64,000 bases of DNA from a phage, in the sequence record PZ445427.1, one strand, 5' to 3'. A model generated the notes under the pieces. It worked only from the letters and a program-made list of their open reading frames with translations, ran no database searches and was not told where the DNA came from. Of this stretch, positions 9,238 through 60,378 are shown piece by piece (position 1 is the first letter of the stretch; each line of letters begins with the position of its first letter). Position numbers and translations under genes: made by a program.

Positions 9238-9242
9238 TTCAA

Positions 9243-9267: not shown

Positions 9268-9276
9268 AAATTTCAT

Positions 9277-9305: not shown

Positions 9306-9329
9306 ATATTTTATAAATTGGAGACACTT

Positions 9330-9584
9330 ATGGGACTCTTTAAAAAGAAAGTTTATTTAACACAAAGTCAAGAACGCAGGTTCTTAGCTCTGTCTCAGTA
9401 TTACCATTTACCTTTCGATCATTTCATAGAACGGGCGTTAGAACAATTCCTAGAAAAGGAATTAAGGGCAATTAGACCTGAACCGCCAAGAGCACCAAAT
9501 GATGCACAGAGAGGTCATCCACGTATCCCACCTATGCCGCCAGTTCCACCAGCGACTAGGGTCATTATAGAAGGTGAAAAATAA
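9330..9584 (+). CDS. ribbon-helix-helix-like small DNA-binding protein with Pro-rich tail
   Basis: ATG 9330 after GGAGA; N-terminal KKVYLTQSQERRFLALSQYY resembles RHH beta-strand/helix; C-terminal PRIPPMPPVPP. Confidence 0.45.
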   Translation: MGLFKKKVYLTQSQERRFLALSQYYHLPFDHFIERALEQFLEKELRAIRPEPPRAPNDAQRGHPRIPPMPPVPPATRVIIEGEK

Positions 9585-9853
9585 TGTCTATTCTTTTATC
9601 TGCTTTAGAAGCAAAACAAAATACTATTGCTAGTATTAAAAAGGAAGTAATTGACTTAGAGTCACTTATTGCCGTAGAGATTGACAAAGCCATCAAAGAT
9701 AAAGAATTTAACTGTCACATCCAGGGATTGACTGAATATTCAGAAAATGCTAGAAATAGCGTCATGCAAAAACTTAGCAAACTAGGTTATGTTGTGGAAG
9801 CTAAGTATGAGCAACGTGAAGGTTTTTGGCTTGAAATTGATTGGAGCAAATAA
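9584..9853 (+). CDS. hypothetical protein (89 aa)
   Basis: ORF translationally coupled (TAATG) on both sides. Confidence 0.5.
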   Translation: MSILLSALEAKQNTIASIKKEVIDLESLIAVEIDKAIKDKEFNCHIQGLTEYSENARNSVMQKLSKLGYVVEAKYEQREGFWLEIDWSK

Positions 9854-10329
9854 TGTCGGTTTTCCACATATATACAGATGGTGCATGTAAGGGCAATCCT
9901 GGTTTAGGTGCGTGGGGATTCGTTGTCTATAATGATAATGATGATCGTATTGGCTCTAAATCTGGCTTCAGCCATAAAACTACTAATAACGAAATGGAAC
10001 TTACTGCAATTGTTGAAGTTCTTCGTTGGTCTACTAAGAAAGATAATCGTCCAGTAATTATCTACACTGATTCTGCTTACTGCAAAAATGGTATGGAAAG
10101 CTGGATGTGGTCTTGGCAGAAGAAAGGATGGAAGAAAGGAGATGGTGAAACTCCTCTTAATCTAGAACTCTGGCAAGAAGCGTTTAAACTAACTCAACAG
10201 TATATTAATTTCCATGATACTAACCCAACCTTTGTTAAGGTTAAAGGTCACTCAGGTATTCGTGGTAATGAAGAAGTTGATGCTCTATGCAATACTGTAA
10301 TTACTGAGCAAGAACTTGCTGAGATGTAA
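9853..10329 (+). CDS. rnhA: ribonuclease H
   Basis: HIYTDGACKGNPG and ELTA motifs of RNase HI; ATG 9853 overlaps upstream stop. Confidence 0.8.
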   Translation: MSVFHIYTDGACKGNPGLGAWGFVVYNDNDDRIGSKSGFSHKTTNNEMELTAIVEVLRWSTKKDNRPVIIYTDSAYCKNGMESWMWSWQKKGWKKGDGETPLNLELWQEAFKLTQQYINFHDTNPTFVKVKGHSGIRGNEEVDALCNTVITEQELAEM

Positions 10330-10349
10330 TAAATAATTTAAAAATTCAC

Positions 10350-10378
10350 TTGCTTAAAGCCCTCGAATTTAGTATAAT
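10350..10378 (+). promoter_or_regulatory. T5-type early promoter
   Basis: ttgctt 10350..10355, 17 bp, tataat 10373..10378. Confidence 0.6.
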
Positions 10379-10405
10379 ATTCGTATTGAAAGTGAGGAGG
10401 GCTTT

Positions 10406-10684
10406 ATGCGAATTTACAACTCAAATTCATTAGGATTTAAACCTTTGAGAAAACGCGCACAATCTCCGCGTCAGATCAGAAAGGCAAATATTGGTGAGCC
10501 AGAAACTAGGCTTCCACCACCTCCGGAGCAGCGTCTAGTTTATCTAGATGAAGAATTAGCCGAAAGGGAACGCAAAGCTCAAGAAGAAATTGAGCGCAAG
10601 AAACTGTGTACTGCTCCTGCATATAACAAGGGTGGTTATCAGTACGTTTCCAGTGAGGAACAAGCTAAGATGATCGGCAGATAA
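10406..10684 (+). CDS. hypothetical protein (92 aa)
   Basis: GAGGAGGG RBS. Confidence 0.55.
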   Translation: MRIYNSNSLGFKPLRKRAQSPRQIRKANIGEPETRLPPPPEQRLVYLDEELAERERKAQEEIERKKLCTAPAYNKGGYQYVSSEEQAKMIGR

Positions 10685-48281: not shown

Positions 48282-49171
48282 TGGGATTTTATAGTAATAG
48301 AAAGCCGAAAGGTGTAGTTGGTAAATTCGCGGTGGAAGAGAGACCTTTTCCACCGGTCGATGTAGAGAAACTACGTGAACTTCTCGAAATGTTAGAGGGC
48401 TGCCATGAACGTTGTTACTCTGAGCTTTCTTTAAACGAGAAACGTGTTGTTGAGATGTTCTGTATTCGGTCAGCTAGAACAGTTAGAGGTACTTCTCCAA
48501 AAGATGAAATAAAAGAATACAGAGTTCTAGTGATGCATGCTTGGGCACAACGTTTTGCAGTTCATTCACTTCAGGAATGGTTTAATCTTCCAGCATATAA
48601 AGACTTCCATGTTTATGAAGATGAAGTTATGAATTATAATGAGTTGTACGGTTTGTCATTTAAAAAGACAGGCTCACCAATGCATGATGCACTCAATTCA
48701 TTCCCTGATCATTATCTTCCAGTTCGTGAATACAGAGATCGTGAGGGAAATAAACCTTGCTTCACTATATGGAATAAGTCTAAGACAATATCTGATCTAG
48801 ACAATTATTGGTTCCGCACAAAAGAAGGATTCCTAGGAACAGAACCTTTACCTAAGGATCTCAAGCCTATCCTCCCACCTGTGAAACCTAAGCATGAAGT
48901 AACGATTGCTATTAATAGAATAATTCTAGGAGCAGATGATCTTACTAAACAAATCGCCGCAGTTATTGCAGTTCTGTTTGAAGGTACAAAATCTTCCCCA
49001 CGTTATGAAAAGCTAACTGATAACAAATTGCAGATACCTAACGAGTTGTACGAGAGTTCATGTAAGATCTATGATAACTTCAGTAAAGTAGATTACCCTG
49101 TGAGATCCATCAAAGAACTCATGGAGTATGCGGAGATGGGGATGAAAGGAAATCTCATGTTCGATGAATAA
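48281..49171 (+). CDS. hypothetical protein (296 aa)
   Basis: TAATG coupling; last gene before repeat region. Confidence 0.55.
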   Translation: MGFYSNRKPKGVVGKFAVEERPFPPVDVEKLRELLEMLEGCHERCYSELSLNEKRVVEMFCIRSARTVRGTSPKDEIKEYRVLVMHAWAQRFAVHSLQEWFNLPAYKDFHVYEDEVMNYNELYGLSFKKTGSPMHDALNSFPDHYLPVREYRDREGNKPCFTIWNKSKTISDLDNYWFRTKEGFLGTEPLPKDLKPILPPVKPKHEVTIAINRIILGADDLTKQIAAVIAVLFEGTKSSPRYEKLTDNKLQIPNELYESSCKIYDNFSKVDYPVRSIKELMEYAEMGMKGNLMFDE

Positions 49172-49178
49172 ACTCTAC

Positions 49179-49207
49179 TTGACGTTATGATTTCTGCATG
49201 TTATAAT
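49179..49207 (+). promoter_or_regulatory. strong sigma70 promoter TTGACG-17-TGtTATAAT pointing into ORF-free repeat region
   Basis: ttgacg 49179..49184, extended -10 tg at 49199..49200, tataat 49202..49207. Confidence 0.55.
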
Positions 49208-49213
49208 AACTCT

Positions 49214-49400
49214 ATGAAATAACATAGAATAAAGAGATCCACCCGGATACGGATGGTGGATGGGAAACTTCTATTTCCCCCGTAGCTTGTCGGAGGGCTA
49301 GGGAAATCTTCAGAAGTTTTGTACCATCTCACGCAATTCGTATCCCAGGGGTGGAGCATCTCTCACAATCCCTTGGGGATCTTATACTTATATAAAAACT
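49214..49400 (+). ncRNA. candidate structured non-coding RNA
   Basis: Promoter-proximal ORF-free GC-rich segment with multiple local hairpins (gggaaacttctatttccc; cccagggg ... cccttgggg). Confidence 0.3.
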
Positions 49401-49456
49401 AATACTGTTGAATAGATAAATTAACGTTCAAGATGATACACTTGTTGCCGCCGCTC

Positions 49457-49650
49457 TTCCTAGGATGGCACAACACTTTCTAGTAGACTCCTAAGTTTCT
49501 AGGAAAACTCACACCAACTCAGGCGGTTTTCATATTCCTAGAAACTCTAGCAATAGGCGGTTTAATACAGGGCGGTTATTTCTAGGAGACATTTTTCCAA
49601 AACACATTTCTGGAAATTGCTATCGGATTTGCACTCTGTGTTTCTAGAAA
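49457..49650. repeat. array of about 8 TTCTAG(G/A)A motifs with 3 interspersed (A/G)GGCGGTT motifs
   Basis: tcctagga 49459, ttctagta 49479, ttctagga 49498, tcctagaa 49536, ttctagga 49580, ttctggaa 49609, ttctagaa 49643; ggcggtt at 49522, 49556, 49571. Confidence 0.6.
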
Positions 49651-50222
49651 TTTATGGTCGGATTTGCACAATTGCCTAAGTTTTCATGAACACATACTCT
49701 CCTGAAAATAACAGCATTATTTCGGGCCGAAGGCCCATGATTGCCTGAGTTTTTAGAGCCACAGGAATTTTCACTTGTCAAGCTATTTTGCCCCATTTTG
49801 CTAATAAAATTTCGCATAATCTCGCCCCACGCCCAATTATCCCAAAACATCCCACATTATCCCCAAAAACGCAGCAAACTAGGCGTTGCACGCCCTTCCA
49901 GCTGCTACTTTCGTAGTTCCTCCCAAAATCTCATCGGATTCGCACTTCTCCCCAAACTCACACAATCACACACCCTCCAATCGAAGTCACAAAAATCTTG
50001 TCGGTTCTGCACACCTTAACACTTGTCGGATTTGCACATATTCTAGTAAATCCAGCTGGATTGCATCGCAGTTGCGGATTGCTGGAGTTTTTAGGAAAAT
50101 TCATTGTCGGATTCGCACACTGTAAAAATATTTCCCATCGGATTTGCACACTACCAAAAATTGTCGGATTCGCACATGCACGCTGGCACGTAATCCATGG
50201 TGGCAAATGTCGGATTTGCACA
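49622..50222. repeat. dispersed array of about 9 copies of GTCGGATT(T/C)GCACA
   Basis: Copies at about 49622, 49657, 49932, 50000, 50025, 50106, 50137, 50163, 50209 plus 2 degenerate copies near 50057..50085. Confidence 0.7.
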
Positions 50223-50257
50223 AAAGCGCAGGGCAAAATGAAAATGCCCTGCCTGCC

Positions 50258-50405
50258 GAAATGCGAATGATAATGAGATTGATTCGCATTTGAGAAGTTG
50301 AATGCGAATGATAATGATTCGCGTTTAGAAAGGGGAATGAGAATGGTTATCCTTTACAGAGTTGAATACGAATGAGTCGCATTTAGAAAGCGAAGTGAGA
50401 AACAC
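50258..50405. repeat. three tandem palindromic units AATGCGAAT-N-ATTCGCATT
   Basis: gaatgcgaatgataatga...gattcgcattt repeated at 50260, 50301, 50367. Confidence 0.6.
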
Positions 50406-50416
50406 TGTTATTTAAG

Positions 50417-50425
50417 TTATCCACA
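50417..50425 (+). promoter_or_regulatory. consensus DnaA box TTATCCACA
   Basis: Exact 9-mer; two 8/9 copies TTATCAACA at 50478 and 50490. Confidence 0.55.
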
Positions 50426-50506
50426 GGTTTATTAACAGCACGATTTGACTTGACAAAATCCTAGTGATTTTGAGGCGTTATCAACAGACTTATCAACAGG
50501 TTATTC

Positions 50507-50526
50507 TACTGTATATTTATACAGTA
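50507..50526. promoter_or_regulatory. LexA (SOS) box-like palindrome TACTGTATATTTATACAGTA
   Basis: 19/20 match to TACTGTATATATATACAGTA consensus (CTGT-N8-ACAG). Confidence 0.5.
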
Positions 50527-50555
50527 TTCCTGCGTAGTGAATAACTCTAATATAG

Positions 50556-50587
50556 CTCTAAAACGCTCTCAAACGCATTCTAACGCG
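50556..50587 (+). repeat. 31-bp direct repeat copy 1 (tctaaaacgctctcaaacgcattctaacgcg)
   Basis: Second copy at 54824..54854 with 3 mismatches. Confidence 0.6.
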
Positions 50588-50627
50588 TTTATTTTTGGAG
50601 GACGTATTTTAATAAGGGGAAATTTGA

Positions 50628-50668
50628 GGAAGGCCAGAAAAAGCGGGGCCGATAGTTGCGCCCCGTTA
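50628..50668 (-). terminator. rho-independent terminator (minus strand)
   Basis: cggggc ... gccccg hairpin; minus strand reads stem then CTTTTTCT. Confidence 0.5.
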
Positions 50669-50671
50669 TTA

Positions 50672-50866
50672 TTAGTCCGGTATTTGATGGGAGAACTCTA
50701 CGCTTTCACCGTAGGAATCTACTAGATTAGTGTAGTAACCATACTCATCATATATAAGTTTGTCATACTCTTGATTCTCACAAATTGCGCGGTTTTCTTT
50801 TGTATCTTCTACATAGAATGTATCCACGGTAACACTAGTTTTACGAATAACAATTTTATCACTCAT
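50672..50866 (-). CDS. hypothetical protein (64 aa)
   Basis: Track ORF, last gene of minus-strand operon inside IR-bracketed cassette. Confidence 0.5.
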   Translation of the reverse strand: MSDKIVIRKTSVTVDTFYVEDTKENRAICENQEYDKLIYDEYGYYTNLVDSYGESVEFSHQIPD

Positions 50867-50883
50867 AGTAACGCCCTCTTTTA

Positions 50884-51144
50884 TTAGTATTCTGTATTAG
50901 TTATAACTATAGCCGTATTTTCTAATTGTCCAGCACTTTCCGCTAAAAATGTAATATGTGCTGTATTGTTAATATAGATTGACTTATGCGCATTTCTTAA
51001 AGCATAAGCCCACCCACGGATCGCTGGCAAAATCTTGTCAAGCGATATATTTTGCGCTCTCAATTCCTTAGCGCGTACTGCCATTGCTTCATGTGCTTCA
51101 GTCAGTCCCTTAACTGTAAAAATACCGTTGCCGTGGTTGATCAT
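50884..51144 (-). CDS. hypothetical protein (86 aa)
   Basis: Track ORF, minus-strand operon. Confidence 0.5.
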   Translation of the reverse strand: MINHGNGIFTVKGLTEAHEAMAVRAKELRAQNISLDKILPAIRGWAYALRNAHKSIYINNTAHITFLAESAGQLENTAIVITNTEY

Positions 51145-51270
51145 AGTGCCATTGCTCCTAGAATGAGAATGATTATCAATATCATTGTAAAGCCATTACC
51201 AAATCGTAAACGCTGGGAATGTTTCCCAGCGGTATTATTAGATTTATGGCTTTGTGTTTTTCGCCACCAG

Positions 51271-51471
51271 CTATTCACGGTAAACGCTCCAACCGTCTAG
51301 CTTCCATTCCTCCCCCTTGCGAATATTGAAAAACCAATCATTAAAATTGTAACCATCTTCCGACATGATCACGCCGTTTTCTTTCATGTACAAAAACTCA
51401 TCGCTAGTAAAATATTGATTACTAACTTTGAAACCTTGTTTCATTTTTTCTAACGCTTCATCTTTAGTCAT
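51271..51471 (-). CDS. hypothetical protein (66 aa)
   Basis: Track ORF, 4-nt overlap with upstream gene. Confidence 0.5.
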   Translation of the reverse strand: MTKDEALEKMKQGFKVSNQYFTSDEFLYMKENGVIMSEDGYNFNDWFFNIRKGEEWKLDGWSVYRE

Positions 51472-51812
51472 TGTGCAATTTCCCGAAACGCTGTTTCAAT
51501 ACTTTCAGCGGTTGATTGAATATATGCGCCTTTCATAATCAGGCGCTCTGTACATACTTTGCGGAAAATGTCAATAAATTCATTTTCATTTTCTGCTACT
51601 AATGGCTCACCCATAACCTGTACATCACATGCGCCAAAAGTAAGAAACTGGAAGGCAAGCTCGCGAGCAACAACGGCATTAATCTTATAATGTGATTTGC
51701 CCTCATAGATATTAACCACGCCTTTATAAACTGGTGAAAGCTGATTTAAATAGCTTGCTAATAATGCCGGACGGCAATTAGTAACAAAACGATTACCCTC
51801 GTAAATAACCAT
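51468..51812 (-). CDS. hypothetical protein (114 aa)
   Basis: Track ORF, minus-strand operon. Confidence 0.55.
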   Translation of the reverse strand: MVIYEGNRFVTNCRPALLASYLNQLSPVYKGVVNIYEGKSHYKINAVVARELAFQFLTFGACDVQVMGEPLVAENENEFIDIFRKVCTERLIMKGAYIQSTAESIETAFREIAQ

Positions 51813-51921
51813 TTGTCAAGCTCCTAAAGCTGGGAAAATATCAGGTACATTTTTAAAACAAATGCAGCGAATGAGCAAACAACGCCAACGGTAGCAAACG
51901 CTAGAGCAATATATAAGGATC

Positions 51922-52134
51922 TCATAATACCCCACGAAAAGCAGCGTAAAAGGTGGCAAAGTGTTTAACCGTTTCGGCTACCAAATTTCCGCGCTTGTCA
52001 AATTTCTTTTCAGTAACACGGAAAGCGTTTTTGTTACGTGCTACATATTCGATTTTACAATCTGGACGCTCAAACGTGTTAACATCCACCAGCTTAAAAC
52101 CTTTAGAACGGGCAAGGGAAACATTCTTTAACAT
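51922..52134 (-). CDS. hypothetical protein (70 aa)
   Basis: Track ORF; preceded on minus strand by extended -10 TGTTATAAT (plus 52192..52200). Confidence 0.5.
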   Translation of the reverse strand: MLKNVSLARSKGFKLVDVNTFERPDCKIEYVARNKNAFRVTEKKFDKRGNLVAETVKHFATFYAAFRGVL

Positions 52135-52191
52135 TTGCTTAACTCCTAGAAATCAGGGAAAATTTTCAATCCACCGTTTCGGTGTAAAGGC

Positions 52192-52200
52192 ATTATAACA
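52192..52200 (-). promoter_or_regulatory. extended -10 promoter element TGTTATAAT (minus strand)
   Basis: plus-strand attataaca; no clear -35. Confidence 0.35.
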
Positions 52201-52228
52201 AAAAAGGCCGCCGATTAGGGCGACCTTT
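52200..52228 (-). terminator. rho-independent terminator (minus strand)
   Basis: Minus strand reads aggtcgccc-taat-cggcggcct then TTTTTTGT. Confidence 0.55.
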
Positions 52229-52241
52229 ACAAAACTTTACA

Positions 52242-52763
52242 TTACATATATCTGATTATTGCATCGCCGTATAGCTCGCTTTCAGATCGTAACACTTGCT
52301 CGAAACGCTGGTATTCTAGCGCCCTGTTTTCTTTTGGGAAATAGCAAGCGTTTTCTAGTGCCTTTTGATAAACATGCAATTCATTATCAAAACGCTGAAC
52401 GATCCCCAGTTCTAGCAAGGCTTTATATACTTCATCCTCACCATGACCACCATTAACAAATTGATAACTTTTCGTGAATTGCCAGCGGTACGCCGTTGCG
52501 CCCACGTCTGGATTTTCTACCATGTTGCAATCGTCACACTCGCAATCATTAGCAGACTCATCACAATTCTGACAGATTTCATGATTGCTAAAACTGGAGG
52601 CGTTTTCCATCGCCATTTCATGCAACGGCGTTTCAATATCGCCAGCGAAAAAATGTTCTACGCTTGCCCATTGTTCGCCGTGGGTATTAGTGTAACAGTA
52701 CACTAGTGCAATGATCGGATGATCAATATGTGATCCGGTTACTACGTCGCCATACTTTGACAT
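52242..52763 (-). CDS. hypothetical Cys-rich protein (173 aa)
   Basis: Track ORF; CQNCDESANDCECDDC cluster. Confidence 0.55.
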   Translation of the reverse strand: MSKYGDVVTGSHIDHPIIALVYCYTNTHGEQWASVEHFFAGDIETPLHEMAMENASSFSNHEICQNCDESANDCECDDCNMVENPDVGATAYRWQFTKSYQFVNGGHGEDEVYKALLELGIVQRFDNELHVYQKALENACYFPKENRALEYQRFEQVLRSESELYGDAIIRYM

Positions 52764-52777
52764 TAATTAGTCTCCTA

Positions 52778-53086
52778 TTAATTAGCAGGGAAATAAAGAG
52801 AATTTGCTACATCGTAAAATCCTTTATTCAAGAAAATTACGTCATCACGGACTATTTCATCCATTCCATAATCCAGCAAAGTTTCATCTACAAAAATACA
52901 TAGCCAGCCATAACCACGATCAAAGAAAGCATGATAATTATTCGCGCTTTCTACATGTTCCCATAAAAAGGGACGGCCTTGCTTTTCCCATATAGGAATA
53001 TTGCTTTGATCGTCTGAATAATTAACGTGTGGGCTATTCGGCATCTTTTCGGCTAATTGCGTCAACATGATTTGATTCAGTTGCAT
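52778..53086 (-). CDS. hypothetical protein (102 aa)
   Basis: Track ORF. Confidence 0.5.
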   Translation of the reverse strand: MQLNQIMLTQLAEKMPNSPHVNYSDDQSNIPIWEKQGRPFLWEHVESANNYHAFFDRGYGWLCIFVDETLLDYGMDEIVRDDVIFLNKGFYDVANSLYFPAN

Positions 53087-53118
53087 AATAAGTAGTCTCC
53101 TAACAATTAACAGGGAAA

Positions 53119-53145
53119 TAGTAAAGCGGGGAAATAATCCCCGCT
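53119..53145 (-). terminator. hairpin terminator (minus strand)
   Basis: agcgggga-aataa-tccccgct; same stem recurs at 56588. Confidence 0.45.
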
Positions 53146-53153
53146 AGTTATTA

Positions 53154-54149
53154 TTATTCTGTTTCGGTGTTTTGGGTAAAGGTAGAAATGTCAATACCTT
53201 TTACCATTTCATCGATCATTTCAGCAATATTGAAACTTTGTACCATTTCCAACATTGCCGCTTCCATTGCCGCGCCTGCTACCGCTTTAGCTTTCGCATT
53301 AGTCGGGGCGTACTGGTCAACCGCTACACTCAGCAGGTTAGCGATCACTACACGACCAATCGGCGTATCAATATACCCTTTAATCATAAACGGCGCTTTT
53401 TTCGCCGCTACTTTTGTGATTTGAGTCAGTGCAATTTTACCCGCTTCCAGTTTAGCAGCGTTAACAACGGCGGATTTATTAGCGGCAACGATAGAAGATA
53501 CTTTAGACATAATATTTCCTTTATTTTCAGTAGTTTGCGCATTTGCGCTTGAAGTTTGAGAGTTTACAGCCTGTTTTGTTACGTTGTCAAGCGGTAAAAG
53601 TGTAAATCCAGCGTTTGCAACGTTTGATTCATTCCCATACTCTAAATAATCGTTAGGGATCAACATGTTACCGCTAGCGCGTTCAAAACACAATACGCCA
53701 GTTGTTTCGATTGCGTCACTATCAGCACGTTTAATGGCGCTTGTCAATTCGCCCCAAATACTAGATAGTAAATCTTCTACATCGCTGGAATTAATACCAT
53801 TTACGCGAGTAGCGAAAACCATTTCCTTTTCTTGTACATTGTAACCACGGGCAATATAGCTTTTTTCGTCGTGACCTACAATGATAAAATCAATATCGCT
53901 TCCCCGCTGATTTCGCATGATGTGATAGTCACGGTTGTAAAGCACTAGAACGCGGGTAGGGTCTAGTAGTTGTGTGAAATCACTTAAACAATAATGAGTA
54001 TCATTATTATCTAAAATATCATCGTGAATCTTTTCAACCATTGCCGCCGTATGTTGTAGGCTTGCTGGACTTGATCCGTCTAGCAGGTTGCGCAAACTAC
54101 CCTTAATAATAGTGGCGTTTGCTGGTACTGCAATTCTTACAGTAGACAT
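53154..54149 (-). CDS. hypothetical protein (331 aa)
   Basis: GGGAGACAAAGA RBS; first gene of cassette. Confidence 0.6.
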   Translation of the reverse strand: MSTVRIAVPANATIIKGSLRNLLDGSSPASLQHTAAMVEKIHDDILDNNDTHYCLSDFTQLLDPTRVLVLYNRDYHIMRNQRGSDIDFIIVGHDEKSYIARGYNVQEKEMVFATRVNGINSSDVEDLLSSIWGELTSAIKRADSDAIETTGVLCFERASGNMLIPNDYLEYGNESNVANAGFTLLPLDNVTKQAVNSQTSSANAQTTENKGNIMSKVSSIVAANKSAVVNAAKLEAGKIALTQITKVAAKKAPFMIKGYIDTPIGRVVIANLLSVAVDQYAPTNAKAKAVAGAAMEAAMLEMVQSFNIAEMIDEMVKGIDISTFTQNTETE

Positions 54150-54396
54150 TTCTTTGTCTCCCTCGTTAATCGGTGAGTGAATGATATAGATAATTGTTCG
54201 CTAGGGGCAAGAAAAAAGAAAAGGTTTTTTATTTCTTGCTTACTGCCTGTTTTTATGATAACCGCGCGTTTTCTATTTCTAGCTCTCTGTAAGCGTACAC
54301 AAGGCTTTATTATAGTAAGGGGTAATGCTGAAAAACCGCTTAGAACGCGTTTTAGGCCGCTTAAATTTGATTGCGGTTGTTACTGCTACCATTCTA

Positions 54397-54416
54397 CCCT
54401 GTATATTTATACAGTA
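54397..54416. promoter_or_regulatory. LexA (SOS) box-like palindrome (core CTGTATATTTATACAG identical to 50509..50524)
   Basis: ccctgtatatttatacagtagg. Confidence 0.5.
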
Positions 54417-54436
54417 GGATAACCTGTACATAAGTC

Positions 54437-54445
54437 TGTGGATAA
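54437..54445 (-). promoter_or_regulatory. consensus DnaA box (TGTGGATAA)
   Basis: Exact reverse complement of TTATCCACA. Confidence 0.55.
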
Positions 54446-54485
54446 GTCGCCAAAACGTCGCCTATTACGTCAAGTTATTTTGTGC

Positions 54486-54494
54486 TGTGGATAA
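54486..54494 (-). promoter_or_regulatory. consensus DnaA box (TGTGGATAA)
   Basis: Exact reverse complement of TTATCCACA; 8/9 copy at 54770. Confidence 0.55.
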
Positions 54495-54823
54495 CTTTGT
54501 GAATAACCTAAATGATAGTGGTTCTCACTTAGCCGATAGTTTCTTATAGTTATTATTTCTCTTTAATTTATAAATATATTATATAATATGAAATAGTTAG
54601 TTGGCTAATAGGTTTTTAGAGTATTAATAGTCTGCTAACTGTTTCGGCTGTTACAATCCACCAGCGTGATTATCATCCTAGCGATTGTTAGTCTACTAAT
54701 GCTCTGATGCACGTCCAGACTTATTTGTCAATGAAAAATAACAGCAGAAAATACTTTTTTGAAAAATCAAGTGGATAACTCATTAAATTTCATTTTTGCT
54801 TTTTGTATAAGTTATTAACAGGG

Positions 54824-54854
54824 TCTAAAACGCTCTGTAACGCATTCTAAGCGC
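54824..54854 (+). repeat. 31-bp direct repeat copy 2
   Basis: tctaaaacgctctgtaacgcattctaagcgc. Confidence 0.6.
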
Positions 54855-54921
54855 CTCAAAGGAAAAGATAGGCAATCATAAGGGGTACACCGAGAAAACC
54901 TCACCACGAGGATTTTAGATT

Positions 54922-54949
54922 TTGTCAAGTAGGGCAAAGCAAATATAAA
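54922..54949 (+). promoter_or_regulatory. candidate sigma70 promoter TTGTCA-16-TATAAA
   Basis: ttgtca 54922..54927, tataaa 54944..54949. Confidence 0.35.
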
Positions 54950-55180
54950 TGAAAAAATTACTTGCTAAAATGGTTGTTTTGGTGTTATTCGCGCGCCTGT
55001 TTCATTAAATTTAGTGCGCCGCTGGACGTTTGCGGGTAGTGGTTTTCTTTACGTTTCTTTACAAAAATACGCTTGCGCCATTTTCGGGAATAACCTATTA
55101 TTTATCTCGTAGGACGGCAAGACGGAAACGAAAGGCCAGACTACAACGGCGGGGAAGTTTACCGCCATGCTCTTTAAAAA

Positions 55181-55206
55181 CTAGGGAACATCTTAAAGCC
55201 TATCGG
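55181..55206. repeat. 26-bp inverted repeat, left copy (partner 55468..55495)
   Basis: ctagggaacatcttaaagcctatcgg vs reverse complement of ccgataggttttaagatgttccccgtag; flanked by 12-bp direct repeat gctctttaaaaa at 55169 and 55501. Confidence 0.6.
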
Positions 55207-55240
55207 CGGTAAACTTATACATTATAAGGAATCGACGATA

Positions 55241-55459
55241 ATGATCAAATCAAAAAACGCTTTAGTGATTAGTGCAAAACCTGCTAGCCCACTGGATAGC
55301 AGAACAAAAAATTTGTTGACAGTAGCGCAACGATCTGTAAAATACAGATTCAAGCAATACAAGAAAGGCAAGCAACAAGGGCTGGAAATGGTGTGGCGTA
55401 ATATAATGATTGATTTATATAACTCACATCAAATCGAAAAAAGTTTAAAAAACGCTTGA
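55241..55459 (+). CDS. hypothetical basic protein (72 aa) bracketed by inverted repeats
   Basis: Track ORF; lies exactly between the 26-bp IR copies. Confidence 0.45.
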   Translation: MIKSKNALVISAKPASPLDSRTKNLLTVAQRSVKYRFKQYKKGKQQGLEMVWRNIMIDLYNSHQIEKSLKNA

Positions 55460-55484
55460 CACGCTAGCCGATAGGTTTTAAGAT
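55456..55484 (+). promoter_or_regulatory. candidate sigma70 promoter TTGACA-17-TAAGAT
   Basis: ttgaca 55456..55461 overlapping right IR copy. Confidence 0.4.
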
Positions 55485-55495
55485 GTTCCCCGTAG
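55468..55495. repeat. 26-bp inverted repeat, right copy
   Basis: See 55181..55206. Confidence 0.6.
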
Positions 55496-55623
55496 TAACT
55501 GCTCTTTAAAAATTTGGATAACGGTAATGTTTAGGCTAACTCCTAGCGGATTATAATCTAATAGCGTTTCAAAGTATCGAGGCGCTATTGTGGAATAATC
55601 CCCAATAAACCGGAGTATTAAAA

Positions 55624-55875
55624 ATGCAAAACGTTATTACCGCGCCGAAAGTAGGTCAATCTGTATTCATTCCTTTTGTAACTAAAACGGATGAATTAAC
55701 CGGAAAAGCCGAACGTATTAAAGGTGCGGCGCTTGATCCCTTTGATAAGATTGAAGCGGTCTATGCGGAAACGGAACGCAGTAACCACGGCAAGCCTATT
55801 TATAACGTCCGTGTTAAATCTGGCGACGTTGTAAAAATCATTCAGAAAGATGATAAATGGCAAGCTATCGCATAA
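55624..55875 (+). CDS. hypothetical protein (83 aa)
   Basis: GGAGTATTAAAAATG initiation region (motif shared by several genes in this block). Confidence 0.55.
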   Translation: MQNVITAPKVGQSVFIPFVTKTDELTGKAERIKGAALDPFDKIEAVYAETERSNHGKPIYNVRVKSGDVVKIIQKDDKWQAIA

Positions 55876-56161
55876 ATTAATGCGCCTTACATATCATGCT
55901 TAGTTAGGCAATAAAGATAACTCGAAATATTCCTAGCGTGAACGGAATAATAAACAGCGTATAAATACAATGTTGCCTTATTAATTCTCTGGCAAGCCGG
56001 ATAAGGTGAGAATATAAATATATTCGGGAATTAATAAACCGCTTGAAACTGGAAATAAAAATAAAATGTTTCCGTTATATATTCTAGCTAATAGAATATA
56101 TAGCGATTAACATTTAGTTAATCATAATCCCTTAATTAATAATTGAATGGAGTATTAAATT

Positions 56162-56578
56162 ATGTCTAACGTTAAAACCGAAAAAACCGCAAAATTCTCT
56201 TGGAACGAAGAAAACACCGAAAAGGCTGTTTCTATGTATTCTGAAATGGTCGCTAAAAGCGGAATTGAATTTGCTAACAGTGACGGCCTGAAAGAAATTG
56301 CCGCCGCCGTTGGCGCTGCAAGCCCTGTTTCTGTACGTTCTAAACTGACAAGCGCAAAAGCGTACCAGAAAAGTGATAAACCGCGTAAAGTTGGCGGCGG
56401 GTCTAGTGTCCGTAAAGCTCACTATGTGCGCGTTATGGCTAAACATGCCATTGATGCTGGCGTTATCAAAGACGCTGATGATCTGGCAAGTCTGGAAAGT
56501 GCAAAACTGGAAACGCTGGAAGCCGTAGCGCAATTGTTAGGCGTAGCGGAGGAAGTAAAACAGGCCGCAGGTGAATAA
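56162..56578 (+). CDS. hypothetical protein (138 aa), possible A2-like pre-early DNA-binding protein
   Basis: GGAGTATTAAATTATG; position immediately upstream of the A1-like gene; identity is positional inference only. Confidence 0.35.
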   Translation: MSNVKTEKTAKFSWNEENTEKAVSMYSEMVAKSGIEFANSDGLKEIAAAVGAASPVSVRSKLTSAKAYQKSDKPRKVGGGSSVRKAHYVRVMAKHAIDAGVIKDADDLASLESAKLETLEAVAQLLGVAEEVKQAAGE

Positions 56579-56587
56579 ATTTTAATT

Positions 56588-56612
56588 AGCGGGGATTATT
56601 CCCCGCTATAAT
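56588..56612 (+). terminator. hairpin, probable terminator
   Basis: agcgggga-ttatt-ccccgct then ATAATTT. Confidence 0.45.
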
Positions 56613-56636
56613 TTCCCTTTGACCGGAGTTATTAAA

Positions 56637-56864
56637 ATGATCTTCTTCCCTAGTGAAGCGTTTATTTTAGGTTTATTTATAGTTGCCGCTATATTTATAT
56701 TTAATTACGGCAAATATATAATCTCTATTATCGGCATTAATTCAGCTTATGCCGCTGATATGTTTAAACGTCAAGCTAATAAACAAAAATATCTAGCGAT
56801 TATATTTTTAACGCTGGCTATTAGTTGCGGTTTTAGTTCTAGTCTTATGCCAATTCTAGAATAA
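56637..56864 (+). CDS. small membrane protein (75 aa)
   Basis: ATG 56637 after GGAGTTATTAAA; two TM segments; track start 56619 is upstream. Confidence 0.5.
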   Translation: MIFFPSEAFILGLFIVAAIFIFNYGKYIISIIGINSAYAADMFKRQANKQKYLAIIFLTLAISCGFSSSLMPILE

Positions 56865-56972
56865 TATTGCAAATTATAACGCCTTTTAAATTGTCCTCAC
56901 TTCAGGCAAGGCGTTATATTTGGCAATATTGCCAGTATTAATATTTATCCCTTTATAGGAGTTGATTTAGTT

Positions 56973-58637
56973 ATGAATATTTCCGCAGAAAAACAAGCTC
57001 AAATTCTGAAAATGGCCGCAGATTTTAACTTCTACGGTAAGCGTTTACGCGCTACTAAATTGGAAGTTTGCGACGATATTTCAAAAGCTGTTTATGATAC
57101 GCCGAAACATTCGACCGCAATTTGTGACTGGTTGGAAGCAAATAAGCCAGCGAAACCGAAAGCGGCAAAAGCTGAAAAGGCGATTAAAAATGATGATCGC
57201 CCCGAAGCGGCGGGGATTGTTTCTAGTACCGTCGAACAATGGGAAGTTAAATCCGGTCGCCGTTTTATTCTAACGTCGATTCAAAATAATACTTTCCCGC
57301 ATAAAAACTTTTTAGCAAGTCTGGAAAAATTCGCTGAATATTGCGGCGCTGAATTGCTGGTTAGTAAATTCATTTATAATAAAAATGGATTCCAGAATGG
57401 GGAAGGTAGCGACGGCATCAAATACGATCCCGCATTTAATAAATATATTTGCGAGAAAAACGTATTTTTAAATAATCGCCGCTTTGCTTTCATGGCTGAA
57501 ATTAACGTTTTACCAACGGCAGATTATCCGCTTTCAGGATTCGCAGAAACCGCCACGGCTTTAAATATTGAAGGGCTGGCAATCGGTCACGCTAAAATCA
57601 CCGCTGAAAGTGTACCAGCGTTAAAAGGTGAAGTAGTGCGCCGTATGTATTCAACCGGAACGGCGACACTAAAAAACTATATCCAGCAAAAGGCGGGACA
57701 AAAAGCCGAGGCTTTACATAATTTCGGCGCTTTGCTGGTAGAGTTTGACGACGACGGAGAATTTTATTGCCGCCAGCTTGAAACAATGGACGAAAGCGGA
57801 ATGTTCTACGATTTGAACGTGTGCGCTATCGCTACCGGATGTTATGAAACATCGGGCCATGTTCTAGGCTTGCAATATGGCGATATTCACGCCGAAAAAT
57901 TAGATGATGAATGCGCCGTTGCTTCATGGGCTAGTGAAAACAGCTTGCTTGATATTCTCAAGCCTAAATATCAATTTATTCATGATGTGCATGATTTTAC
58001 ATCGCGTAACCATCACAACCGCGCTAGTGGTGTATTCCTTGCTAAACAGTACGCCGCCGGACGTGATAAAGTTATTGATGATCTTATCGATACTGGACGC
58101 GTTTTAGAGTCTATGGAGCGTGATTTCTCTCAAACAATCATTGTGGAATCCAACCATGATTTAGCTCTTTCACGCTGGCTAGATGATCGTAACGCAAACA
58201 TTAAAGACGATCCCGCAAACGCGGAATTGTATCACCGTCTAAACGCTGCGATTTACGCCGCTATTGCTGAAAAGGATGATACCTTTAACGTTCTAGATTA
58301 CGCCTTGCGTAGTGTCGCAGGTTGCGAATTTAACGCTATTTTCCTGACGACAGACCAATCATTTAAAATCGCTGGCATTGAATGCGGCGTACACGGTCAC
58401 AATGGCATTAACGGCAGTCGGGGCAATCCTAAGCAGTTTAAAAAGTTGGGACGCCTTAACACTGGTCATACTCATACGGCTAGCATTTACGGCGGCGTTT
58501 ATACCGCTGGCGTGGCGGGGTCGCTTGATATGGGCTACAACGTGGGCGCGTCAAGCTGGACGCAAACGCATTTAATTACCTATGCAAACGGGCAACGTAC
58601 TTTGATTGATTTCAAAAACGGTAAATTCTTTGCATAA
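56973..58637 (+). CDS. A1: calcineurin-like metallophosphoesterase nuclease, T5 A1-like pre-early protein
   Basis: 554 aa; full set of metallophosphoesterase motifs (GDIH, IHDVHD, ESNHD, GVHGHNG, TGHTHT); TAGGAG RBS; assignment to T5 A1 rests on size, motif set and gene context. Confidence 0.5.
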   Translation: MNISAEKQAQILKMAADFNFYGKRLRATKLEVCDDISKAVYDTPKHSTAICDWLEANKPAKPKAAKAEKAIKNDDRPEAAGIVSSTVEQWEVKSGRRFILTSIQNNTFPHKNFLASLEKFAEYCGAELLVSKFIYNKNGFQNGEGSDGIKYDPAFNKYICEKNVFLNNRRFAFMAEINVLPTADYPLSGFAETATALNIEGLAIGHAKITAESVPALKGEVVRRMYSTGTATLKNYIQQKAGQKAEALHNFGALLVEFDDDGEFYCRQLETMDESGMFYDLNVCAIATGCYETSGHVLGLQYGDIHAEKLDDECAVASWASENSLLDILKPKYQFIHDVHDFTSRNHHNRASGVFLAKQYAAGRDKVIDDLIDTGRVLESMERDFSQTIIVESNHDLALSRWLDDRNANIKDDPANAELYHRLNAAIYAAIAEKDDTFNVLDYALRSVAGCEFNAIFLTTDQSFKIAGIECGVHGHNGINGSRGNPKQFKKLGRLNTGHTHTASIYGGVYTAGVAGSLDMGYNVGASSWTQTHLITYANGQRTLIDFKNGKFFA

Positions 58638-58689
58638 TTAAATTTAATCGGCGGTTGAAATATACCGCCATTAATAAAAGGTTTATTAA

Positions 58690-58968
58690 ATGGCTAGTAA
58701 AATTAATATATCTATCCCTGATAGCAATTGTTTAGAAGATATTGCATGGTCTGAAATGTCTTTTGATAGTTGCGTTTATTTAGTTACCCGTGGAATGTAC
58801 GCGGGAATGTATGCCGTATGGGATAGTAATATTGGCGAAAATATGATCTTTTTCGGAAAAGATTCTATTCAGGTAATGACAGGCGATTACCTTAATCAAG
58901 AAAGGAAAGACGGCGACGAAACATATTTTCGTAAAACTGATTTATCTTTAAATGTATTTTTTCAATAA
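58690..58968 (+). CDS. hypothetical protein (92 aa)
   Basis: Track ORF. Confidence 0.5.
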   Translation: MASKINISIPDSNCLEDIAWSEMSFDSCVYLVTRGMYAGMYAVWDSNIGENMIFFGKDSIQVMTGDYLNQERKDGDETYFRKTDLSLNVFFQ

Positions 58969-59000
58969 ATCCCGTAATTAAATAATCTGGAGTCATAAAC

Positions 59001-59393
59001 ATGAAACAACAAAATATTCCTTTTGACCGCGCTACTTCTTCCATCGTTCTAGTTTATTCTAACGGCGAACGTTATCACGTTGAAGCGGGGCAAGTTAATT
59101 TCGATTTGCTAAATTATAATGACGCTTTGCAGGTTACTACCTTTGCTTATGATACCGGCAAAGTGGCAAGCCATACGAAAGCAAAAGGCGTTTACGCTGA
59201 TACTTTGACAGTGCAAACAATCATTATTGATGCGCTTAAATCCGGTCTAGCGTTTGCAGTTGTTAAGCCGTGTCCGGTCTGCAATCCCGAAGCTAGCGCA
59301 ATGGTTTATACTTGCGCGGGGATTCGTTCTAGCGTACATGGTGAAGATCTTAGTTTTATTGGTGACGCGCTAGCGTATGGCCTCACTAACTAA
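59001..59393 (+). CDS. hypothetical protein (130 aa)
   Basis: CTGGAG RBS. Confidence 0.5.
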   Translation: MKQQNIPFDRATSSIVLVYSNGERYHVEAGQVNFDLLNYNDALQVTTFAYDTGKVASHTKAKGVYADTLTVQTIIIDALKSGLAFAVVKPCPVCNPEASAMVYTCAGIRSSVHGEDLSFIGDALAYGLTN

Positions 59394-59480
59394 TAGTTAA
59401 TTGAACATTGCCAGCTAATCTAATATAATTAGCTGGCAAGATTGAATTAACCTAAATCCCTTAAATGGAGAATGTAACAA

Positions 59481-60215
59481 ATGAATCAAGTCAACATGAA
59501 TATTACCCGCACTTTCCCGCATATTTCCCGCGTTATGATTTGGGATTTAGACGGAACGATTATAAATTCTTTCCATCGTGTAGCGCCTTGCTTTGATGAT
59601 AACGGGAATTTAGATTTAAATAAGTATTCTCGCGAAGCCTGCAAACATGATTTAATTATGCAAGATTCTTTATTGCCGTTGGTTGAATATATGCGCCAAT
59701 GTATGAATGATGCAAATACATTAAATATAATTTGTACCGCGCGCTTAATGTCTAAAAGCGATTATTTTTATTTACGCAAACAAGGCTTGCGAGGGCGCGG
59801 AAATAGTAATATTCGCGTATTTTCCCGCGATACATTACATAAATACTTTGATGCAAATAAGGTTAGCGAAATATATCACAGTAAAGACGCTGTATATAAA
59901 TCTTATTACTTTGAACTGTTTAAACAGCTATATCCTAACGCTGATTTTACAATGATTGATGATCATAAAGGTGTATTATCGGCGGCGGCAAGTGCTGGAT
60001 TTAAAACGCTGGACGCTCAAGCCGTTAATGATATCCTATCAATCGGCGTAACATTGATCGGTGAAACCTTTATTGATGAATCGCTTGATGATGATAACGA
60101 TTATCAATTCCTAGCCGAACGTTTAAAAATGTGTTGGGAAGGTATGACCGAGGAAGAACGCGCGGAATATAGTACCACTCCGCAACAATTCATTGATAAA
60201 TTAAAAGTTGCCTAA
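59481..60215 (+). CDS. dmp: HAD-superfamily 5'-deoxyribonucleotidase (T5 Dmp-like)
   Basis: 244 aa; HAD motif I IWDLDGTIINS; TGGAGA RBS; last gene of the pre-early-like block. Confidence 0.55.
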   Translation: MNQVNMNITRTFPHISRVMIWDLDGTIINSFHRVAPCFDDNGNLDLNKYSREACKHDLIMQDSLLPLVEYMRQCMNDANTLNIICTARLMSKSDYFYLRKQGLRGRGNSNIRVFSRDTLHKYFDANKVSEIYHSKDAVYKSYYFELFKQLYPNADFTMIDDHKGVLSAAASAGFKTLDAQAVNDILSIGVTLIGETFIDESLDDDNDYQFLAERLKMCWEGMTEEERAEYSTTPQQFIDKLKVA

Positions 60216-60227
60216 CAATTAAAAATA

Positions 60228-60264
60228 AAATAGTCACACTGTGTAATGATAACATGGTGTGACT
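60228..60264 (+). terminator. 10-bp perfect hairpin after dmp-like gene
   Basis: atagtcacac ... gtgtgactat; no clear U-tract. Confidence 0.35.
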
Positions 60265-60378
60265 ATTAGCTTGCTAAGTACCGGGGCGGTAATGAGACTC
60301 ATTCTCATCTAGGGAACCTCTGGGCACACCTTCATGTGTAATCTTATGAGATTTCGAGAATTGGTAATTAGCGCTAAC

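What the first reader, a model, noticed from the sequence alone, without database searches (positions are those of the whole stretch)
49400..50405. 1-kb ORF-free region with three distinct repeat families (TTCTAGRA array, GTCGGATTTGCACA array, tandem AATGCGAAT palindromes)
Between the last early gene and the IR-bracketed cassette there is no ORF but dense ordered repeats: about 8 TTCTAG(G/A)A motifs at roughly 20-30 bp spacing with three GGCGGTT motifs (49457..49650); about 9 copies of GTCGGATT(T/C)GCACA (49622..50222); a CA-rich tract with repeated TCCC(C)AAAA (49840..49990); and three tandem palindromic units AATGCGAAT...ATTCGCATT (50258..50405). This looks like iterated protein-binding sites: a replication origin or partition-like site, or the injection-stop signal region that T5-type phages use to pause DNA entry after the pre-early genes. 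Which protein binds each family is unknown.
Basis: seen in the sequence. Interest (0 to 1): 0.7.

Follow-up and report, generated by a model that had tools for sequence, protein, structure and literature searches.

The report
T5-type injection-stop repeat region
This repeat-dense non-coding stretch is the already described "injection stop signal" region that T5-like phages carry where their long terminal repeat meets the unique DNA; how it works is still unproven.

Summary
The window is a T5-like phage (Epseptimavirus-like), reversed relative to T5. The non-coding stretch 49172-50671 is collinear with T5 "Repeat Region 3". T5's GenBank records annotate that region repeat by repeat and label its repeat-internal part "injection stop signal (iss)".

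- GTCGGATTYGCACA is T5 direct repeat D: 9 copies, all on one strand, against 0.4 expected by chance.
- The AATGCGAAT palindromes are direct repeat C with palindromes E-I.
- TCCC(C)AAAA is direct repeat A.
- The TTCTAGRA/GGCGGTT array is conserved but unnamed in the sources I could read.

What I add:
- The inner end of the terminal repeat lies inside the region, at 49755|49756. It is the centre of the best-conserved 110 bp.
- The CTAG/GGCGGTT array and two D copies are therefore unique DNA.
- The T5 7.9 % nick site maps to 50225|50226.

Origin and partition site are not supported. No binding protein is known for any family, and a role in packaging or end formation is not excluded.

Verdict: already known, ordinary for this phage family, moderately low interest.

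The parts
49179..49207 (+). Near-consensus sigma-70 promoter (TTGACG-17-TATAAT with an upstream TG). It is conserved in all relatives and fires towards the repeat region.
   Evidence: 11 of 12 positions; alignment; also seen in the Klebsiella and Proteus phage sequences.
49214..49393 (+). Candidate small RNA. It has a long imperfect hairpin (49233-49362) and a terminator-like hairpin (49368-49380). The body is hypervariable in sequence, but it folds into a long hairpin in every relative examined.
   Evidence: MFE -68 kcal/mol, z -5.5; z -2.9 to -7.4 in 9 phages; + strand more stable than - strand by 6-14 kcal/mol; no Rfam match.
49455..49652 (.). CTAG-core array: 7 CTAG cores, 4 of them exact TTCTAGRA. 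It is interleaved with three GGCGGTT motifs (49522, 49556, 49571). It lies outside the terminal repeat, in unique DNA. It is not named in the T5 records I read.
   Evidence: densest CTAG cluster in the window; motif conservation 0.84-0.96 against 0.55 for the spacer; no T5 annotation; motifs kept in Erwinia KEY and Proteus Stubb.
49623..49669 (+). Two direct repeat D (DRD) copies outside the terminal repeat (cores 49623-49634 and 49658-49669). They correspond to T5 DRD8 and DRD7 and lie at -132 and -97 from the repeat end.
49703..49815 (.). The best-conserved block of the region (0.95-0.96 identity). It is centred on the inner end of the terminal repeat, ...TGAGTTTTTA|GAGCCACAGG (49755|49756), which is the mature right DNA end in T5 orientation. 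It includes the GC hairpin GGGCCGAAGGCCC (49724-49736).
   Evidence: 7 of 9 independently annotated records, including two T5 records and two PhageTerm runs, place the boundary at this identical sequence. One search gives the conservation.
49816..49997 (+). C-rich, G-poor tract (GC skew -0.57) with TCCC(C)AAAA repeats, equivalent to T5 direct repeat A copies 2-3. It also holds one extra DRD copy (49934-49945) that T5 lacks.
50001..50221 (+). Six DRD copies inside the terminal repeat, equivalent to T5 DRD6 to DRD1. Cores start at 50001 (degenerate), 50026, 50107, 50138, 50164 and 50210. Their spacing (25, 81, 31, 26, 46) is identical to T5.
   Evidence: One search shows positions fixed at +246/+271/+352/+383/+409/+455 from the repeat end in ten phages, with no copy on the other strand.
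50063..50075 (.). Small hairpin between DRD5 and DRD4. It is kept by compensatory changes among relatives: CGAAC/GTTCG, CGAGC/GCTCG, GATGC/GCATC.
   Evidence: Alignment, read directly from the sequences.
50222..50252 (+). Predicted site of the T5-type major single-strand nick, AAAA|GCGCAGGG, between 50225 and 50226. It is followed by the palindrome J hairpin (50228-50252).
   Evidence: T5 annotations. The PhageTerm 'ends' of Seafire, Sugarland and Stubb fall at this motif. Conservation is 0.98.
50259..50384 (.). Tandem palindromic AATGCGAAT...ATTCGCATT units, equivalent to T5 direct repeat C with palindromes E-I. The T5 estimate of the first-transfer shear point (7.9 %, about position 9618) maps to about 50276.
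   Evidence: The shear-point estimate is; the mapping is my arithmetic from DRD1.
50390..50526 (.). The IRC'-spacer-IRD' module, a 135-nt arm inverted at 54399-54533. It holds two DnaA-box pairs, each separated by 3 bp: TTATCCACA-GGT-TTATTAACA at 50417-50437 and TTATCAACA-GAC-TTATCAACA at 50478-50498. It also holds a 19/20 LexA-box look-alike at 50507-50526, which is T5 palindrome D.

Best explanation
The stretch is the orthologue of bacteriophage T5 'Repeat Region 3'. This is the non-coding junction between the roughly 10.6-kb terminal repeat (window 49756-60325, which carries the pre-early genes dmp, A1 and A2) and the unique early-gene DNA. It is a composite of cis-acting sites rather than one array.

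The repeat-internal half is the region held to be the injection stop signal. It comprises the paired DnaA boxes, the SOS-box-like palindrome, the AATGCGAAT palindromes, the conserved nick site and the DRD copies.

Proposed mechanism: DNA enters left end first, which is right to left in window coordinates. Entry pauses when about 50276 reaches the cell. Only the pre-early genes are expressed during the pause. A1 and A2 then restart entry.

Inferred, not shown: the stop module (50259-50526) is held by host proteins and/or DNA structure at the envelope. The one-stranded DRD array is the first DNA to enter on restart and serves as a track of binding sites for a phage protein. A2 is the obvious candidate.

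The same region also contains the end of the terminal repeat, which is the site where the mature right end is cut.
For: Shown here:
- The window is a T5-like phage. The best match is 93.6 % identical over the region, and 545 related records match.
- The region aligns end to end with T5 at about 77 % identity, with the same order of elements.
- T5 GenBank records name every element and label 9140-10149 'injection stop signal (iss)'.
- DRD spacing is identical to T5, and DRD positions are fixed relative to the repeat end in ten phages.
- Motifs are conservation islands (0.9-0.98) among weaker spacers (0.55-0.77).
- The architecture persists in Klebsiella (Sugarlandvirus) and Erwinia KEY phages, whose A1 proteins are only 64-74 % identical.
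- No ORF is conserved.

From the literature:
- The first-transfer fragment is about 7.9 % of T5, and iss is a cis-acting site in this untranslated region (Davison 2020).
- The mechanism is still open in 2023-2026 papers.
Against: - Nothing here, or in the papers I could read, demonstrates that any of these motifs stops or restarts DNA entry. The iss assignment in T5 rests on position and sequence peculiarity only.
- By the T5 estimate, most DRD copies and the whole CTAG/GGCGGTT array lie beyond the DNA that has entered at the pause. If they take part, it is not by acting inside the cytoplasm at the stop.
- Proteus phage Stubb has A1 and A2 homologues but only one DRD-like copy. The DRD array is therefore not universal among two-step-type phages.
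- The A2 model gave no recognisable DNA-binding fold.
Confidence: 0.7

Rival explanations
1. Packaging and end-formation site. The invariant 110 bp around 49755|49756 is where terminase cuts the concatemer to make the right genome end, and packaging should start there. The DRD array flanking it, fixed in position and on one strand only, would be the set of small-terminase binding sites, like cosB R sites in lambda. This can coexist with an injection-stop role for the neighbouring module.
For: - The repeat end lies inside the region, at an identical sequence in 7 of 9 annotated records.
- That block is the most conserved part of the whole non-coding stretch.
- DRD copies lie on both sides of it at fixed distances, all on one strand.
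- Inference: because the left end enters the cell first, the right end should be packaged first. The cut at this boundary would then be the initiating cut.
- No T5 packaging signal turned up in the literature search.
Against: - There is no DRD near the other repeat end (60325|60326).
- DRD positions relative to the cut differ in Erwinia KEY. Their spacing along the array differs in Klebsiella EK80.
- There is no experimental link between terminase and these motifs.
- The small-terminase gene runs off the end of the window and was not analysed.
Confidence: 0.3
2. Replication origin built from DnaA boxes and iterated initiator-binding sites.
For: - One consensus DnaA box and three near-consensus ones lie in two pairs.
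- The DRD 3' half (ATTTGCACA) is one mismatch from the TTWTNCACA consensus, by direct reading.
- The repeats look like iterons.
Against: - There is no AT-rich unwinding element. GC is 0.39-0.46, not lower than the flanks.
- DRD spacing of 25-81 bp shows no helical phasing.
- No initiator gene is adjacent. Flanking ORFs gave no Pfam replication-domain match.
- The literature places T5 origins near the genome centre, and the replication genes are not expressed while this DNA is the only DNA in the cell.
Confidence: 0.05
3. Transcription-control region. Host-regulator operators (LexA-like, DnaA) and hairpins would regulate or terminate the convergent early and pre-early transcripts and a small RNA. 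On this reading the repeats are regulatory operators rather than DNA-transfer signals.
For: - A strong conserved promoter and a structured RNA lie at 49179-49393.
- The genes on both sides converge on the region.
- There are terminator-like hairpins.
- A LexA-like box lies in each arm of the inverted pair. One of them sits between a promoter-like site and the first gene of the 54149-to-50672 cassette.
Against: - Nine same-strand DRD copies spread over 600 bp, with no gene downstream, do not resemble an operator.
- The motif order is conserved even where the flanking genes are not (Davison).
- The nick and the repeat end point to functions at the DNA level.
Confidence: 0.15
4. Partition (centromere-like) site.
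For: Only the general look of iterated short repeats.
Against: - This is a virulent phage with linear DNA.
- None of the neighbouring proteins scanned has a ParA or ParB domain.
- The homologous T5 region has never been linked to segregation in the sources read.
Confidence: 0.02

Closest known systems
Bacteriophage T5 Repeat Region 3 / injection stop signal (iss). Sources: AY587007 9194-10409; AY543070 misc_feature 9140-10149; Heusterspreute et al. 1987 (cited); Davison 2020.
   Same: It is orthologous. The position is the same (inner end of the terminal repeat), and the order of elements is the same: DnaA-box inverted-repeat module, repeat C palindromes, palindrome J with the nick, repeat D array, repeat A, repeat end, then more repeat D. 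Identity is about 77 % end to end, and DRD spacing is identical.
   Different: - The window lacks T5 DRD9, which lies in a 45-bp segment missing here. It has an extra DRD at 49934.
- It has fewer repeat C units than T5 or DT57C.
- The CTAG/GGCGGTT array extends beyond the limit of the named T5 region and is unnamed there.
Lambda cosB and other terminase recognition sites (several small-terminase binding repeats beside the cut site). From my own knowledge.
   Same: Short repeats in one orientation lie within a few hundred bp of a precisely conserved DNA end.
   Different: No terminase binding has been shown. The copies lie on both sides of the cut and up to 455 bp away. T5 makes 10-kb direct terminal repeats, not cohesive ends.
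T7 arrays of short repeats (SRL/SRR) just inside and outside its terminal repetition (Dunn and Studier 1983). From my own knowledge; not verified with the tools.
   Same: Arrays of imperfect short repeats flank the boundary of a direct terminal repeat in a phage that enters left end first.
   Different: The motifs are unrelated. The T7 repeat is 160 bp, against about 10.6 kb here. The function of the T7 arrays is also poorly defined.
oriC-type DnaA box clusters.
   Same: There are consensus and near-consensus DnaA boxes in closely spaced pairs (Davison 2020).
   Different: There is no AT-rich unwinding element, the boxes sit in two distant inverted modules, and T5 origins map elsewhere.

Membership tests
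T5 Repeat Region 3 / iss region | Lies at the inner end of the long terminal repeat, between the pre-early genes (dmp, A1, A2) and the early genes. | tested here: met
   dmp is at 59481-60215, A1 at 56973-58637 and A2 at 56162-56578, downstream in the same repeat. Early genes end at 49171. The repeat end is at 49755|49756.
T5 Repeat Region 3 / iss region | Sequence homology and collinearity with T5 9194-10409. | tested here: met
   Coverage is 100 % at 76.6-76.8 % identity to both T5 records. The aligned elements appear in the same order.
T5 Repeat Region 3 / iss region | Characteristic repeat set: about 9 repeat D copies, repeat C palindromes, repeat A, and an inverted-repeat module with paired DnaA boxes 3 bp apart and a distant inverted partner. 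| tested here: met
T5 Repeat Region 3 / iss region | Untranslated. | tested here: met
   No mechanical ORF is preserved in relatives.
T5 Repeat Region 3 / iss region | Acts in cis to halt DNA transfer after about 8 % of the genome. | not testable with these tools
   This needs infection experiments. It has not been demonstrated at motif level even for T5.
Terminase recognition / cleavage site (pac or cos type) | Contains or adjoins a physical genome end. | tested here: met
   The repeat end is at an identical sequence in 7 of 9 annotated relatives. This rests on homology, not on data from this phage.
Terminase recognition / cleavage site (pac or cos type) | Bound and cut by the phage terminase. 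| not testable with these tools
   No data are available.
DnaA-dependent replication origin | Cluster of DnaA boxes next to an AT-rich unwinding element. | tested here: not met
   DnaA boxes are present, but there is no AT-rich element: GC is 0.39-0.46 across the region.
DnaA-dependent replication origin | Replication starts there. | not testable with these tools
   The literature cited places T5 origins mid-genome.
Partition site (parS-like) | Adjacent ParA/ParB-type genes. | tested here: not met
   The eight flanking proteins scanned gave no such domain. This was not an exhaustive scan of the phage.
LexA (SOS) operator | CTGT-N8-ACAG with a close match to the 20-bp consensus. | tested here: met
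   50507-50526 matches 19/20 and 54397-54416 matches 17/20. These are the only two CTGT-N8-ACAG sites in the 64 kb. Binding was not tested. The consensus is quoted from my own knowledge.
Fur box | Close match to GATAATGATAATCATTATC. | tested here: not met
   The palindromic units score only 13-14 of 19, no better than many other places in this AT-rich window.

The most novel reading that the evidence does not exclude
The so-called iss region is really two machines side by side.

(a) A stop module made of near-consensus host-protein sites: two DnaA-box pairs plus a 19/20 LexA box, duplicated in inverted orientation 3.9 kb away.

(b) The never-defined T5 packaging and end-formation site: the invariant 110 bp around the repeat end, together with the one-stranded, fixed-position DRD array that flanks it, and perhaps the unnamed CTAG/GGCGGTT array in unique DNA.

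On this reading the DRD and CTAG families have nothing to do with stopping injection.
Probability: 0.25. Interest if true: 0.55.

Novelty: already known. Interest (0 to 1): 0.3.

Why it matters
Two-step DNA transfer in T5 has been known since the 1960s, and its cis-acting stop signal has never been pinned to a sequence. Papers from 2023 to 2026 still call the mechanism poorly understood.

The finding rediscovers that region in a related phage, so it does not add a new kind of element. The comparative map made here does turn a vague 'repeat-rich region' into a short list of separately testable parts:
- the stop module;
- the nick;
- the DRD track at fixed distances from the repeat end;
- the invariant end block;
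- the CTAG/GGCGGTT array, which is unique DNA and present only once per genome.

That could guide mutagenesis and binding experiments.

Tried and rejected
- **Rfam:** a scan of 48500-51500 at E<=1 gave only a sub-threshold snoRNA chance hit.
- **Fur-box idea for the AATGATAATGATTC units:** scores of 13-14/19 are not better than background.
- **Origin reading:** no AT-rich element.
- **Coding potential:** all mechanical ORFs are broken in relatives. Pfam gave nothing informative for the flanking proteins.
- **DRD as the nickase recognition site:** DRD1 sits exactly 16 nt before the nick in every phage aligned, and in Proteus phage Stubb by direct reading. However, the only other GCGCAGGG in the window (37266, probably the 18.5 % nick) has no DRD next to it.
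- **DRD match at 42870:** it lies inside a coding ORF, so I take it as a chance match.
- **A2 as a recognisable DNA binder:**
  - No PDB sequence match.
  - The AlphaFold model (pLDDT 82) is two helical bundles joined by a basic linker.
  - No Foldseek hit has E<0.8. The result is inconclusive.
- **Chi sites:** none in the region.
- **G-quadruplex or telomere-like reading of the C-rich tract:** the G-runs are not conserved in relatives.
- **Papers not held:** Davison 2015 (PMC4743489) and the supplements to Davison 2020 were not held. I could not check whether the CTAG/GGCGGTT array or the LexA-like box were named there.
- **Known host-factor motifs for DRD:** I compared it from memory with CRP, TyrR, IHF, Fis, PurR and ArgR sites. 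None fits. Only the DnaA box comes within one mismatch.

Full report
**Observation**

The stretch between the last + strand gene (ends 49171) and the first - strand gene (50672-50866) is 1.5 kb and densely repetitive.

The strongest family is TCGGATTYGCAC.
- There are eight exact copies plus one degenerate copy between 49623 and 50221, all on the + strand.
- Allowing one mismatch, the whole window holds 10 matches against 0.41 expected.
- Of the two outside matches, the one at 42870 sits inside a coding ORF. I did not examine the other, at 48015.

Seven CTAG cores in 49460-49644 nevertheless form the densest CTAG cluster in the window.

Three GGCGGTT copies are interleaved with the CTAG cores.

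All three exact AATGCGAAT sites of the window lie in 50260-50309, forming two good and one or two degenerate palindromic units.

Mechanical ORFs of up to 92 aa exist, but none survives in relatives. The region is non-coding.

**Identity**

The window is a T5-like phage. The best hit is Salmonella phage SIY1lw (Epseptimavirus) at 93.6 % identity, and hundreds of Demerecviridae records match. [quoted passage not shown]

The window runs in the reverse of the T5 convention. It comes from an assembly with one collapsed terminal repeat, because receptor-binding and terminase genes follow dmp.

The region aligns over its full length with T5 at about 77 % identity. T5 record AY587007 annotates the homologous stretch element by element. 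The list reads:
- palindromes C-J;
- inverted repeats D' and C';
- direct repeats B, C and A;
- nine copies of direct repeat D;
- 'major single-stranded nick 1, 7.9 %'.

AY543070 labels 9140-10149 'injection stop signal (iss)'. Davison's 2020 preprint calls the region Repeat Region 3 and reports it conserved in 25 T5-like phages.

- GTCGGATTYGCACA is direct repeat D. Its spacing of 46, 26, 31, 81, 25 is identical to T5.
- The AATGCGAAT palindromes are direct repeat C with palindromes E-I.
- TCCC(C)AAAA is direct repeat A.
- The CTAG/GGCGGTT array is present in the T5 sequence. It is not annotated in the T5 record, and Davison's limit of 10409 excludes part of it.

**Anatomy added here**

*Repeat end.* Seven of nine independently annotated records place the inner end of the terminal repeat at the same sequence...TGAGTTTTTA|GAGCCACAG. 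These records are T5 twice, SIY1lw, Sw2 and Sepoy by PhageTerm, EscoHU1 and SPC35. In the window this is 49755|49756.
- The other repeat end maps to 60325|60326. The repeat is therefore about 10.6 kb.
- The CTAG/GGCGGTT array, two D copies and a GC hairpin are unique DNA. Everything to the right of 49755 is present at both genome ends.

*Conservation.* The 110 bp around the repeat end are the most conserved part of the whole stretch, at 0.95-0.96 identity. Motifs score 0.9-0.98 and spacers 0.55-0.77.

*D-copy positions.* The D copies sit at fixed distances from the repeat end in ten Tequintavirus and Epseptimavirus genomes: -132, -97, +246, +271, +352, +383, +409 and +455. They are always on the same strand.

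*Nick.* The T5 nick maps to AAAA|GCGCAGGG at 50225|50226. Three PhageTerm 'repeat ends' fall exactly on this motif: Seafire, Sugarland and Stubb. This suggests the nick is conserved and that those annotations mistook it for the terminus.

*Wider conservation.* Klebsiella (Sugarlandvirus) and Erwinia KEY phages keep the whole plan. The more distant Proteus phage Stubb keeps the following:
- one D-like copy with the nick;
- the palindromes;
- the DnaA pairs;
- the SOS-like palindrome;
- TTCTAG motifs;
- one GGGCGGTTAT.

It has no D array.

**Mechanism**

By homology, this is the region where DNA entry pauses. The T5 estimate of the sheared first-transfer fragment (about 9618) maps to about 50276, inside the palindromic units. 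This estimate is uncertain by a few hundred bp.

On that estimate, the inverted-repeat module with two DnaA-box pairs has just entered or is at the envelope. So has a 19/20 LexA-box look-alike (50390-50526). The D array, the repeat end and the CTAG array are still in the tail or head.

A tail of about 250 nm (the BF23 measurement) holds roughly 735 bp. The 1.1-kb repeat region is therefore about as long as the DNA path from capsid to cytoplasm. Different families could act at different points along that path. This is inference.

My preferred reading has two parts: a host-protein- or structure-dependent stop module, and a one-stranded D track that enters first on restart and binds a phage protein, with A2 as the candidate. 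None of this is shown.

The main rival is that the invariant end block and the flanking D copies are the terminase recognition and cutting site. It may be complementary rather than exclusive. By the last-in, first-out rule, the right end should be packaged first. I found no defined T5 packaging signal in the literature.

The origin and partition readings lack support.

**Comparison and novelty**

The region passes every sequence-level membership test for T5 Repeat Region 3 / iss. The functional test cannot be made computationally.

It is already known: it was described in 1987 (cited) and 2020, and it is annotated in GenBank.

The following points are, as far as the sources I could read go, either new or not stated there:
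- the exact coincidence of the conservation maximum with the repeat end;
- the fixed register of the D copies;
- the CTAG/GGCGGTT array in unique DNA;
- the LexA-like boxes (no mention; no paper found);
- the structured RNA next door.

Recent papers still regard the mechanism as open.

**Dead ends**

- Rfam gave nothing.
- The Fur-box idea was not supported.
- The D repeat is not a general nick signal.
- The A2 fold was uninformative.
- Davison 2015 and the preprint supplements were unavailable.

Noticed in passing
window 49179-49393 (+): A candidate small RNA gene lies just left of the finding. It has a near-consensus promoter, a long hairpin of about 130 nt (MFE -68 kcal/mol, z -5.5) and a terminator-like hairpin. 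The promoter and 3' end are conserved in all relatives. The body is hypervariable in sequence, yet it folds into a long hairpin in all 9 phages tested (z -2.9 to -7.4). The + strand is always more stable than the - strand. There is no Rfam match.
   Followed up: partly
window 50507-50526 and 54397-54416: There are two LexA (SOS) box look-alikes, TACTGTATATTTATACAGTA (19/20) and CCCTGTATATTTATACAGTA (17/20). They are the only CTGT-N8-ACAG sites in the 64 kb, one in each arm of the 135-nt inverted repeat. The first is T5 'palindrome D'. It is almost invariant in the ten phages aligned (only the two central bases vary), and the CTGT-N8-ACAG frame is kept in Proteus phage Stubb. It is not mentioned in Davison 2020, and no paper was found linking T5 to LexA.
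   Followed up: partly
window 50225|50226 and 37265|37266 (+ strand): GCGCAGGG occurs only twice in the window. The first is the homologue of the T5 7.9 % nick. The second lies about where the 18.5 % nick should fall. Both are on the strand that is the T5 minus strand.
   Followed up: partly
L007 (Seafire), L015 (Sugarland), L014 (Stubb): The PhageTerm-derived 'terminal repeat' ends in these three GenBank records fall at R|GCGCAGG, the nick motif, rather than at the conserved GTTTTTA|GAGCCACAG repeat end. This is probably a nick read as a terminus. The DTR end annotated for Kenya-K16 (equivalent to window 50410|50411) also disagrees with the consensus position.
   Followed up: partly
window 50063-50075: A 5-bp hairpin between two D copies is preserved by compensatory substitutions in T5, SIY1lw and Sw2. 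This suggests a structural element or a co-varying dyad binding site.
   Followed up: no
window 49756-60325: The window carries a single copy of the terminal repeat (about 10.6 kb) joined directly to the receptor-blocking, receptor-binding and terminase genes. The source record is therefore a collapsed or permuted assembly, not the virion DNA layout. At the outer repeat end (60325|60326), the conserved sequence is on the unique side (CACCTTCATGTGTAATCTTATGA...), not the repeat side.
   Followed up: partly
window 49800-49999: The base composition is strongly strand-asymmetric (GC skew -0.57). The tract is C-rich with CCCCAAAA-type repeats, so the G-rich strand runs 5' to 3' towards the right genome end. 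The G-runs are not conserved in relatives.
   Followed up: no
window 49426-49480: A near-invariant 55-bp block (GTTCAAGATGATACAC..GTTGCCGC..CTAGGATGGCACAACACTTTC) opens the CTAG array. It has no obvious repeat or known motif.
   Followed up: no
window 56162-56578 (+), A2: The A2 protein has no match in the local Pfam copy, although its database homologues carry PF26822. It has no PDB relative. The AlphaFold model (pLDDT 82) shows two helical bundles joined by a conserved basic, glycine-rich linker (KPRKVGGGSS.RK).
   Followed up: partly
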